Virus record (IMG/VR): IMGVR_UViG_2617270946_000017
DNA: 5,362 bases
Direction: 5' to 3' (one strand)
From: a virus
Taxonomy: Duplodnaviria > Heunggongvirae > Uroviricota > Caudoviricetes
Shown here: in pieces, positions 5,268 through 5,362 of the stretch
How positions within the stretch are numbered: the stretch's first letter is position 1
How the letters are laid out: the number at the start of each line of letters is the position of its first letter
Position numbers and translations under genes: made by a program
Notes under the pieces: generated by a model
The model's input: only the letters and a program-made list of their open reading frames with translations
Databases searched by the model: none
Told to the model about the DNA's origin: nothing

Positions 5268-5278
5268 ACGATTTCCTT

Positions 5279-5284
5279 ATTATA
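5279..5284 (-). promoter_or_regulatory. Candidate -10 hexamer (TATAAT, perfect consensus) for the invertase gene
   Basis: Minus-strand TATAAT at 5284-5279, about 12 nt upstream of the SD. No good -35 hexamer at 16-18 bp spacing, so promoter strength is uncertain. Confidence 0.35.
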
Positions 5285-5332
5285 AAAAGCCGGAATTGTC
5301 GCATGAGGAATAAAACAGAGTTAATCCTGGCT

Positions 5333-5358
5333 TTCCTGAAAACCTCGGTTTACGGGAA
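5333..5358. other. gix-type 26-bp invertase crossover site (boundary of an invertible segment that extends beyond the window end)
   Basis: Plus strand TTCCTGAAAACCTCGGTTTACGGGAA is an imperfect palindrome whose central AAAACCTCGGTTTAC is identical to the Mu gix core as recalled (TTATCCAAAACCTCGGTTTACAGGAA), about 22/26 matches overall. It sits immediately upstream of the invertase gene, as in Mu and P1. Confidence 0.75.
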
Positions 5359-5362
5359 ACGG

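What the first reader, a model, noticed from the sequence alone, without database searches (positions are those of the whole stretch)
5268..5362. gix site at the window edge implies an adjacent invertible tail-fibre segment just outside the window
A near-consensus 26-bp gix site lies about 66 bp upstream of the invertase ATG, with a TATAAT -10 between them. In Mu and P1 this marks the boundary of the invertible G or C segment carrying alternative tail-fibre gene ends. The segment and the partner site should lie beyond 5362.
Basis: partly seen in the sequence, partly recalled or inferred. Interest (0 to 1): 0.5.

Follow-up and report, generated by a model that had tools for sequence, protein, structure and literature searches.

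The report
Gin-type inversion site of Mu-like prophage
The 26-base site at the window edge is a real recombination site of a Mu-like E. coli prophage; with a partner 1.3 kb away it lets the neighbouring invertase flip a short tail-fibre segment, which is an ordinary, well-understood kind of phage host-range switch.

Summary
Observation confirmed, interpretation supported. Window 5333-5358 holds a 26-bp gix-type site (minus strand TTCCCGTAAACC-GA-GGTTTTCAGGAA). It matches Mu gixR at 21 of 26 positions and lies 65 nt upstream of a 190-aa serine invertase gene (4695-5267, minus) whose product is 72% identical to Gin and to Cin.

The window is the right end of a Mu-like prophage inserted in malX. 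Near-identical prophages in complete E. coli genomes show what lies beyond 5362. A partner site in inverted orientation, with the same GA core, sits 1317 bp away inside the tail-fibre gene. The 1.3-kb segment carries two alternative fibre C-termini and one tail-fibre assembly gene.

FORC_029 and NCCP 13983 are identical over 14.5 kb except for an exact inversion of this segment. Its breakpoints fall in a 20-bp interval that starts at the gix core.

Two details need correcting. The partner is 1.3 kb away, not 2-3 kb, and the segment starts inside the window, so 5347-5362 already belong to it. The TATAAT is there, but it sits 11 nt before the ATG, directly against the Shine-Dalgarno sequence, with no usable -35, so it is a doubtful promoter.

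This is a new member of a known kind and of low interest. The only unusual trait is a compact, asymmetric segment with a single chaperone gene.

The parts
5333..5358 (-). Invertase-proximal gix-type crossover site: two 12-bp half-sites (5333-5344 outside the segment, 5347-5358 inside it) around a 2-bp core
   Evidence: Sequence. Unique match to the family skeleton, with 0 of 200 shuffles matching. 21 of 26 positions identical to Mu gixR. Conserved in CI5, O157 380-94 and the LC727881 Mu-like element.
5345..5346 (.). Core dinucleotide (TC on +, GA on -), the inferred staggered-cut crossover point and boundary of the invertible segment
   Evidence: The inversion that separates L001/L008 from L003 is consistent only with boundaries between L001 12746 and 12765, which is window 5345-5364. 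That interval starts exactly at the core. The partner site has the same GA core.
5347..5362 (+). First 16 bases of the invertible segment (inner half-site plus 4 nt). They are identical in both orientations, so the window cannot show which orientation its own genome is in
   Evidence: The arms are identical from the core up to L001 12764, which is window 5363.
5268..5332 (-). 65-nt spacer between the site and the invertase ATG. It holds the Shine-Dalgarno AAGGA (5278-5274) and the TATAAT hexamer (5284-5279); no promoter was identified
   Evidence: Mu has a comparable 54-nt spacer between gixR and gin.
4695..5267 (-). DNA invertase gene (190 aa), a small serine recombinase of the Gin/Cin/Hin subclass
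   Evidence: Pfam Resolvase 1.6e-51 and HTH_7 4.9e-15. PHROG 125 'DNA invertase' 1.9e-94. 72% identity to Mu Gin and to P1 Cin. S9, K46, R47, K50, Q150, R153 and L154 are present.
5178..5249 (-). Stretch equivalent to the annotated P1 recombinational enhancer (invertase codons 7-30), the putative Fis-bound enhancer. A Fis-like 15-mer, GTGCAGGATGTGAGC, at 5197-5183 is conserved in gin and cin
   Evidence: The P1 record annotates the enhancer at cin nt 19-90. Nucleotide identity is 76-78% here against 64-70% in nt 91-420, and third-codon identity is 50-54% against 32-41%. This is inferred, not shown.

Best explanation
The site is the invertase-proximal crossover site (the gixR equivalent) of a Gin-type DNA inversion switch. 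The switch belongs to a Mu-like transposable prophage of E. coli whose right end fills window 342-5362.

The likely mechanism is as follows. A dimer of the invertase encoded at 4695-5267 binds this site, and a second dimer binds the partner site 1317 bp away inside the tail-fibre gene. The two dimers synapse, probably on a Fis-bound enhancer in the first ~90 nt of the invertase gene, about 100 bp from the site. Ser9 cuts both strands at the GA/TC core, one dimer pair rotates 180 degrees, and the ends are rejoined.

This flips a 1.3-kb segment. The constant 5' part of the tail-fibre gene (about 183 codons) is then joined to one of two alternative C-terminal receptor-binding ends of about 110 codons. 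Only one of those ends is followed by a tail-fibre assembly gene.

Shown here: the site, the partner, the gene content of the segment, and exact inversion between otherwise identical prophages. Inferred from the family: catalysis by this invertase, dependence on Fis and an enhancer, and a change of host range.
For: Site: it is unique in the window and absent from shuffles. It matches Mu gixR at 21 of 26 positions and has the same placement, upstream of an invertase gene transcribed away from the segment.

Invertase: Resolvase and HTH_7 domains, and 72% identity to Gin and Cin. It keeps catalytic S9 and the residues that PMC3798978 reports as conserved only in Fis/enhancer-dependent invertases: Hin K47/R48/K51 and Q151/R154/L155, here K46/R47/K50 and Q150/R153/L154.

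Partner: it is in inverted orientation with an identical GA core, at L001 14051-14076. These two are the only gix-like sites in 24.8 kb. The same pair is conserved in diverged relatives L005, L009 and L010.

Segment: it lies inside a tail-fibre gene (PHROG 1833, 4e-141) whose constant part is 47% identical to Mu S. The site is embedded in the same peptide in both proteins (FIDNVGLRETVN here, FIQNLGLQETVN in Mu S). The tfa gene matches Caudo_TAP.

Inversion: FORC_029 (L008) and NCCP 13983 (L003) are identical over 14,498 bp except for an exact inversion. The breakpoints are confined to a 20-bp interval that starts at the core. Each orientation gives a full-length fibre, of 293 or 296 aa.
Against: No biochemical or read-level evidence is available for this element. 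The outer half of the partner site is degenerate: it differs from the Mu half-site at 3 of 12 positions, including the base next to the core, a position that the SfMu authors suspected of impairing inversion (PMC4406740). Orientation is strongly skewed: 18 of 21 near-identical complete genomes, and 10 of 10 loci, show one orientation. Switching may therefore be slow. The two near-identical inverted-orientation genomes (FORC_043 and NCCP 13983) carry the prophage at the same elfC insertion site, so they may reflect a single inversion event; CI5 is also inverted but is a diverged variant at another site, with no opposite-orientation counterpart to map breakpoints against. The enhancer is inferred only from homology and raised synonymous-site conservation. 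No promoter for the invertase was identified.
Confidence: 0.9

Rival explanations
1. The segment does flip, but through host homologous recombination (RecA) between the long imperfect inverted repeats formed by the two fibre C-terminal coding regions. The gix-like site would then be only a conserved remnant.
For: The arms extend well beyond 26 bp: 86 nt at 90% identity, then 50 nt at 84%. Recombination inside the arms does occur. NCCP 13905 (L006) has the arms reciprocally swapped while the interior is in the common orientation. CP170329 (L011) has one arm converted to a copy of the other.
Against: The breakpoints of the L001/L008 versus L003/L004 inversion lie in the first 20 bp of about 136 bp of repeat, starting exactly at the core dinucleotide. 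An intact invertase with all catalytic and Fis-contact residues is encoded 65 nt away. The pair of sites with matching cores is conserved in relatives at 74-84% nucleotide identity, where the arms have diverged.
Confidence: 0.05
2. The site is a fossil. The prophage is defective and the switch is frozen. The orientations seen in genomes would then be inherited from different infecting phages, or would be assembly choices, rather than ongoing switching.
For: One orientation strongly predominates. The outer half-site of the partner is degenerate. The window's copy carries a 141-nt deletion in a neighbouring gene, so some decay has occurred.
Against: Two genomes whose chromosome lengths differ by 1 bp (5,189,944 and 5,189,943) carry the prophage at the same insertion site. 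They are identical over 14.5 kb and differ only by the inversion. That is hard to explain by separate infections. The invertase ORF is intact and identical in thousands of assemblies.
Confidence: 0.04
3. The main role of the site is as an operator. Invertase bound there would repress its own promoter in the 65-nt spacer, with recombination as a secondary role.
For: The site lies directly upstream of the invertase gene, as in Mu.
Against: No sigma-70-like promoter was detected in the spacer. The TATAAT abuts the Shine-Dalgarno and has a 2-of-6 -35. This role would add to recombination rather than replace it, and inversion at the site is documented.
Confidence: 0.01

Closest known systems
Bacteriophage Mu G segment with gixL/gixR and the Gin invertase
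   Same: The genome layout is the same: baseplate genes, tail fibre S, invertible segment, invertase, then com-mom at the right end of a transposable prophage. The invertase is transcribed away from the segment, with the crossover site 54 nt (Mu) or 65 nt (here) upstream of it. The 26-bp site has the AAACC-GA-GGTTT centre. The partner site is embedded in the same conserved peptide of the fibre protein. The invertase is 72% identical to Gin and the constant part of the fibre is 47% identical to that of Mu S.
   Different: The segment is 1.3 kb rather than 3 kb. The variable fibre ends are about 110 aa rather than about 330 aa. There is one tail-fibre assembly gene rather than two (U and U'). 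The outer half-sites differ from each other and from Mu. Four extra genes (SASA/DUF6645, DUF1378, DUF826 and a small ORF) lie between the invertase and com.
Phage P1 C segment with cixL/cixR and the Cin invertase
   Same: The invertase is 72% identical to Cin. The recombinational enhancer annotated in the P1 record at cin nt 19-90 aligns with the best-conserved 5' stretch of the window's invertase gene. The segment likewise carries alternative tail-fibre C-termini.
   Different: In P1 the 3' end of cin abuts cixL, so the gene is transcribed towards the segment. The segment is 4.2 kb, has two chaperone genes, and the core is TT/AA.
Salmonella Hin/hix flagellar switch and the e14/Rac/Qin Pin-type prophage invertases of E. 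coli
   Same: They belong to the same Fis/enhancer-dependent DNA invertase subclass. They use 26-bp sites with a 2-bp core and have the Fis-contact residues, and in Hin the site lies about 100 bp from the enhancer (PMC3798978).
   Different: Hin flips a promoter and lies inside its own segment. The Pin systems belong to lambdoid cryptic prophages, not to a Mu-like element. I did not compare sequences with Pin.

Membership tests
Fis/enhancer-dependent DNA invertases (Gin/Cin/Hin/Pin subclass of small serine recombinases) | An N-terminal resolvase-type catalytic domain with the Ser9/Ser10 nucleophile and a C-terminal HTH_7 DNA-binding domain, about 190 aa in all | tested here: met
   Pfam Resolvase 1.6e-51 (residues 3-135) and HTH_7 4.9e-15 (138-181). 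S9 is present in the RVST motif. 72% identity to Gin and to Cin.
Fis/enhancer-dependent DNA invertases (Gin/Cin/Hin/Pin subclass of small serine recombinases) | Residues conserved only in enhancer-dependent invertases: Hin K47, R48, K51 in helix B and Q151, R154, L155 in helix 1 of the DNA-binding domain (PMC3798978) | tested here: met
   K46, R47, K50, Q150, R153 and L154 are present; Gin numbering is Hin numbering minus 1.
Fis/enhancer-dependent DNA invertases (Gin/Cin/Hin/Pin subclass of small serine recombinases) | Two 26-bp crossover sites in inverted orientation, each made of two imperfect 12-bp half-sites around a 2-bp core, with the same core in both sites | tested here: met
   The sites are window 5333-5358 and L001 14051-14076. 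Both have a GA core when read into the segment. They are the only two such sites in 24.8 kb. The partner lies outside the window and was read from identical prophages.
Fis/enhancer-dependent DNA invertases (Gin/Cin/Hin/Pin subclass of small serine recombinases) | A cis-acting recombinational enhancer with two Fis sites | tested here: inconclusive
   The stretch homologous to the annotated P1 enhancer is more conserved than the rest of the gene, also at third codon positions. Only one Fis-like 15-mer is shared by all three genes under a crude degenerate motif, and a second site at the expected spacing was not clearly found.
Fis/enhancer-dependent DNA invertases (Gin/Cin/Hin/Pin subclass of small serine recombinases) | The DNA between the sites actually inverts, with exchange at the core | tested here: met
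   L008 and L003 are identical over 14,498 bp apart from an exact inversion. The breakpoints lie within L001 12746-12765 and 14045-14064, an interval that starts at the core. This is comparative evidence only, and catalysis by this particular enzyme is not shown.
Mu-type G segment (S-U / U'-S' host-range switch) | The segment lies inside the tail-fibre gene, so that a constant N-terminal part is joined to alternative C-terminal parts | tested here: met
   The two orientations give fibres of 293 aa and 296 aa. Residues 1-183 are identical and the C-termini are alternative and homologous to each other. The proteins match the tail-fibre family PHROG 1833 and are 47% identical to Mu S over the constant part.
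Mu-type G segment (S-U / U'-S' host-range switch) | Each alternative fibre end is followed by its own assembly-chaperone gene (U and U') | tested here: not met
   The segment holds a single Caudo_TAP gene, following S'v. The other C-terminus ends at a hairpin with no chaperone gene. The same holds in L009 and L010.
Mu-type G segment (S-U / U'-S' host-range switch) | The two orientations give phage particles with different host ranges | not testable with these tools
   This needs induction of lysogens and plating on different hosts.

The most novel reading that the evidence does not exclude
This widespread group of E. coli Mu-like prophages has a minimal, asymmetric version of the G segment: 1.3 kb, two fibre tips of about 110 aa, and only one chaperone gene. 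The orientation found in almost all lysogens expresses the fibre tip that has no chaperone gene of its own. That tip would then have to fold without a dedicated Tfa or borrow one, and the switch might work as a rarely used escape route rather than a balanced bet-hedging device. The swapped and converted arms seen in L006 and L011 would reflect secondary exchange within the arms, possibly at quasi-sites.
Probability: 0.3. Interest if true: 0.3.

Novelty: new member of a known kind. Interest (0 to 1): 0.15.

Why it matters
The practical value lies in annotation. The site, its partner and the segment boundaries are not annotated in the RefSeq records. There the off-orientation fibre end is labelled an 'incomplete phage tail protein' pseudogene, and spurious small ORFs are called across the site. 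Recognising the switch explains why otherwise identical E. coli genomes differ by a 1.3-kb inversion in this prophage. It also flags a source of misassembly and of false structural variants. Biologically it adds one more, compact, example of a phage host-range switch. It does not change how such switches are understood.

Tried and rejected
1. I looked for the window's exact source. No complete E. coli RefSeq genome contains the malX-prophage junction; all hits start at window 330-342. The orientation in the window's own genome therefore could not be read. The last 16 bases of the window are identical in both orientations.

2. I scanned for a promoter upstream of the invertase.

3. I scanned for Fis sites with a crude degenerate motif. 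Only one site was shared by the three genes, which leaves the enhancer inconclusive.

4. I searched the phage collection for a close sequenced phage. The best match was 74% identical, a Mu-like element inserted in Stx phages, so no characterised phage of this exact type was found.

5. I considered extra crossover sites of the Min/p15B multi-site type. Only two gix-like sites occur per locus.

6. I considered that the chimeric L006 is an assembly or polishing artefact. This cannot be excluded for L006. L011 shows a related but non-reciprocal pattern in an unrelated genome, so real recombination within the arms is at least as likely.

Full report
**1. The observation**

The last 30 bases of the window read ttcctgaaaacctcggtttacgggaaacgg. 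On the minus strand, positions 5358-5333 are TTCCCGTAAACC GA GGTTTTCAGGAA. This is two imperfect 12-bp half-sites around a 2-bp core.

The site is the only match in the window to the family skeleton TTN5AAACCNNGGTTTN5AA, and no match appeared in 200 dinucleotide-preserving shuffles. I took Mu's sites from NC_000929: gixL is TTATCCAAAACCTCGGTTTACAGGAA and gixR is TTCCTGTAAACCGAGGTTTTGGATAA. Read towards the invertase gene, the window site matches gixR at 21 of 26 positions, including the whole AAACC-GA-GGTTT centre.

The adjacent ORF, 4695-5267 on the minus strand, encodes 190 aa. It has a Resolvase domain (1.6e-51) and an HTH_7 domain (4.9e-15), matches the PHROG 'DNA invertase' family at 1.9e-94, and is 72% identical to both Mu Gin and P1 Cin. 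Sixty-five nucleotides separate the site from the ATG; Mu has 54.

It ends 11 nt before the ATG and directly abuts the AAGGA Shine-Dalgarno. The best -35 at 17 nt matches at 2 of 6 positions, and the promoter scan found nothing there. The site is real; the promoter assignment is not supported.

**2. Context**

- Window 1-341 is the 3' end of host malX.
- From about position 342 the window is the right end of a Mu-like transposable prophage. On the minus strand, in transcription order, it carries the invertase, a SASA/DUF6645 protein, DUF1378, DUF826, com and mom.
- Window 342-5362 is 99.9-100% identical to prophages in about a dozen complete E. coli genomes, each with a different flank.
- The identical invertase protein is recorded in thousands of assemblies, with the prophage next to many different host genes. 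That spread is what a transposing phage would produce.

**3. What lies beyond 5362**

In NCCP15648 (locus L001; window 4600 corresponds to L001 12001) the site is at 12734-12759. An inverted repeat of 86 nt (90% identity), followed by a second of 50 nt, links it to 13923-14071. At its outer end, at 14051-14076, lies TTCCCGTAAACC GA CGTTATCGATAA. This partner is in inverted orientation, has the same GA core, and starts 1317 bp from the first site. These are the only two gix-like sites in 24.8 kb.

The partner sits inside the tail-fibre gene (13712-14593, minus strand, 293 aa). That protein matches PHROG 1833 'tail fiber protein' at 4e-141. It follows the Mu gp47- and gp48-like baseplate genes. 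Its first ~198 residues are 47% identical to Mu S, and the site is embedded in the same peptide in both: FIDNVGLRETVN here, FIQNLGLQETVN in Mu.

The 1.3-kb segment contains:

- On the minus strand, the current fibre C-terminus of about 110 aa, which ends at a hairpin.
- On the plus strand, an alternative C-terminus (114 codons starting at the site).
- Also on the plus strand, following the alternative C-terminus, a 173-aa tail-fibre assembly gene (Caudo_TAP 4.8e-19; PHROG 136).

**4. Evidence that the segment inverts**

In a search with L001 12096-14593, 18 near-identical genomes were colinear with the query. Three matched as split hits.

NCCP 13983 (L003) and FORC_043 (L004) carry the prophage at the same elfC insertion site as NCCP15648 and FORC_029. 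In both, the assembly gene is now co-oriented with a 296-aa fibre.

L003 equals L001 after an exact inversion. The boundaries that fit run only from 12746/14064 to 12765/14045, a 20-bp interval whose outer limit is the core dinucleotide.

FORC_029 (L008) and NCCP 13983 have chromosomes of 5,189,944 and 5,189,943 bp. They are identical across 14,498 bp apart from that inversion. The two fibre proteins share residues 1-183 and differ after that, with homologous but distinct C-termini.

**5. Mechanism**

By homology with Gin, Cin and Hin, invertase dimers bind the two sites. They synapse on a Fis-bound enhancer, cut at the core through Ser9, rotate and religate (PMC3575834; PMC3798978).

The window's invertase has S9. 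It also has the residues reported as conserved only in enhancer-dependent invertases: K46, R47, K50, Q150, R153 and L154.

The P1 record annotates the enhancer at cin nt 19-90. The equivalent stretch here is window 5249-5178. It is more conserved than the rest of the gene: 76-78% against 64-70% nucleotide identity, and 50-54% against 32-41% at third codon positions. It starts about 100 bp from the site, as in Hin. This is suggestive only. My crude Fis motif found a single 15-mer shared by the three genes.

**6. Differences from Mu and P1**

- The segment is 1.3 kb rather than 3 or 4.2 kb.
- The variable fibre ends are short.
- There is only one chaperone gene.

The same architecture recurs in diverged relatives: O157:H7 380-94, and the Mu-like element in LC727881, whose invertase region is 74% identical at the DNA level. 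It is therefore a stable design and not a recent deletion.

The orientation that joins the fibre tip lacking a chaperone gene of its own to the constant part predominates. It is seen in 18 of 21 complete genomes and in 10 of 10 further loci with different insertion sites.

The outer half-site of the partner is degenerate, including the base next to the core. The authors of the SfMu paper suspected a change at that position of impairing inversion (PMC4406740). Inversion has nevertheless occurred here.

**7. Rival explanations**

*Homologous recombination between the long arms.* This is the main alternative. Recombination within the arms does occur: the arms are swapped in L006 and one arm is converted in L011. 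However, the documented inversion maps to the core-proximal 20 bp of about 136 bp of repeat. An intact invertase is adjacent, and the pair of sites is conserved where the arms have diverged.

*A frozen relic.* This is unlikely given the FORC_029 and NCCP 13983 pair.

**8. Novelty**

Invertible tail-fibre segments in prophages, including homologues of Mu S, are well known and have been catalogued systematically (PMC9881135). This is a new, unannotated member of a known kind, and the only unusual feature is its compact, asymmetric segment. Interest is low.

Noticed in passing
window 1-345: Window 1-341 is the 3' end of host malX (PTS maltose IICB, residues 419-530), and the prophage end is at about 342. 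The window begins exactly at the malX stop codon. No complete E. coli RefSeq genome has this junction. The same prophage sits next to elfC, yfcU, dapB, cyd, eut/pta and other genes elsewhere, as expected for a transposing Mu-like phage.
   Followed up: partly
window 2696-4609 (minus strand); deletion junction at 3010-3018: A protein with a SASA (sialate O-acetylesterase-like) domain and a DUF6645 domain is encoded between the invertase and DUF1378, DUF826 and com-mom. Mu has no gene at that position. It is 637 aa here but 684 aa in every relative examined. The difference is a 141-nt in-frame deletion between 9-bp direct repeats (CCAGCAGGT) that removes the start of the DUF6645 domain.
   Followed up: partly
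L006 (NCCP 13905) 1670-2950; L011 (CP170329); L001 coordinates 12765-12846 and 13964-14045: In L006 the ~85-nt arms next to the two sites are reciprocally swapped while the interior has the common orientation. This implies a second exchange inside a 23-nt identity block (L001 12847-12869), or an assembly or polishing chimera from a mixed population. In L011 the invertase-side arm has been converted to a copy of the fibre-side arm.
   Followed up: partly
L001 12747-14063 (the segment adjoining window 5347-5362): The invertible segment has only one tail-fibre assembly gene, and the other fibre C-terminus has none. The orientation that expresses the fibre without its own chaperone gene is the one seen in nearly all assemblies. 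The same layout occurs in O157:H7 380-94 (L009) and in the LC727881 Mu-like element (L010).
   Followed up: partly
window 1457-2046: This stretch between com and the DUF826 gene has no counterpart in L001, so it is a replaced or variable region. It contains a 97-aa plus-strand ORF (1618-1911) of unknown function.
   Followed up: no
window 470-1406 (minus strand): The com and mom genes overlap as in Mu: a Zn_ribbon_Com ORF at 1161-1406 and a Mom-family ORF ending at 470. The mechanical mom ORF extends to 310 aa, against 245 aa annotated in relatives. Some assemblies call a 299-aa Mom and no separate com.
   Followed up: no
L003 6586-6783 and L001 12681-12881 (minus strand; spans window 5333-5358): RefSeq annotates a 65-aa 'hypothetical protein' that reads out of the segment across the gix site, antisense to the fibre end. 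It is called only in some arm configurations. It is probably a spurious ORF created by the inverted repeat.
   Followed up: no
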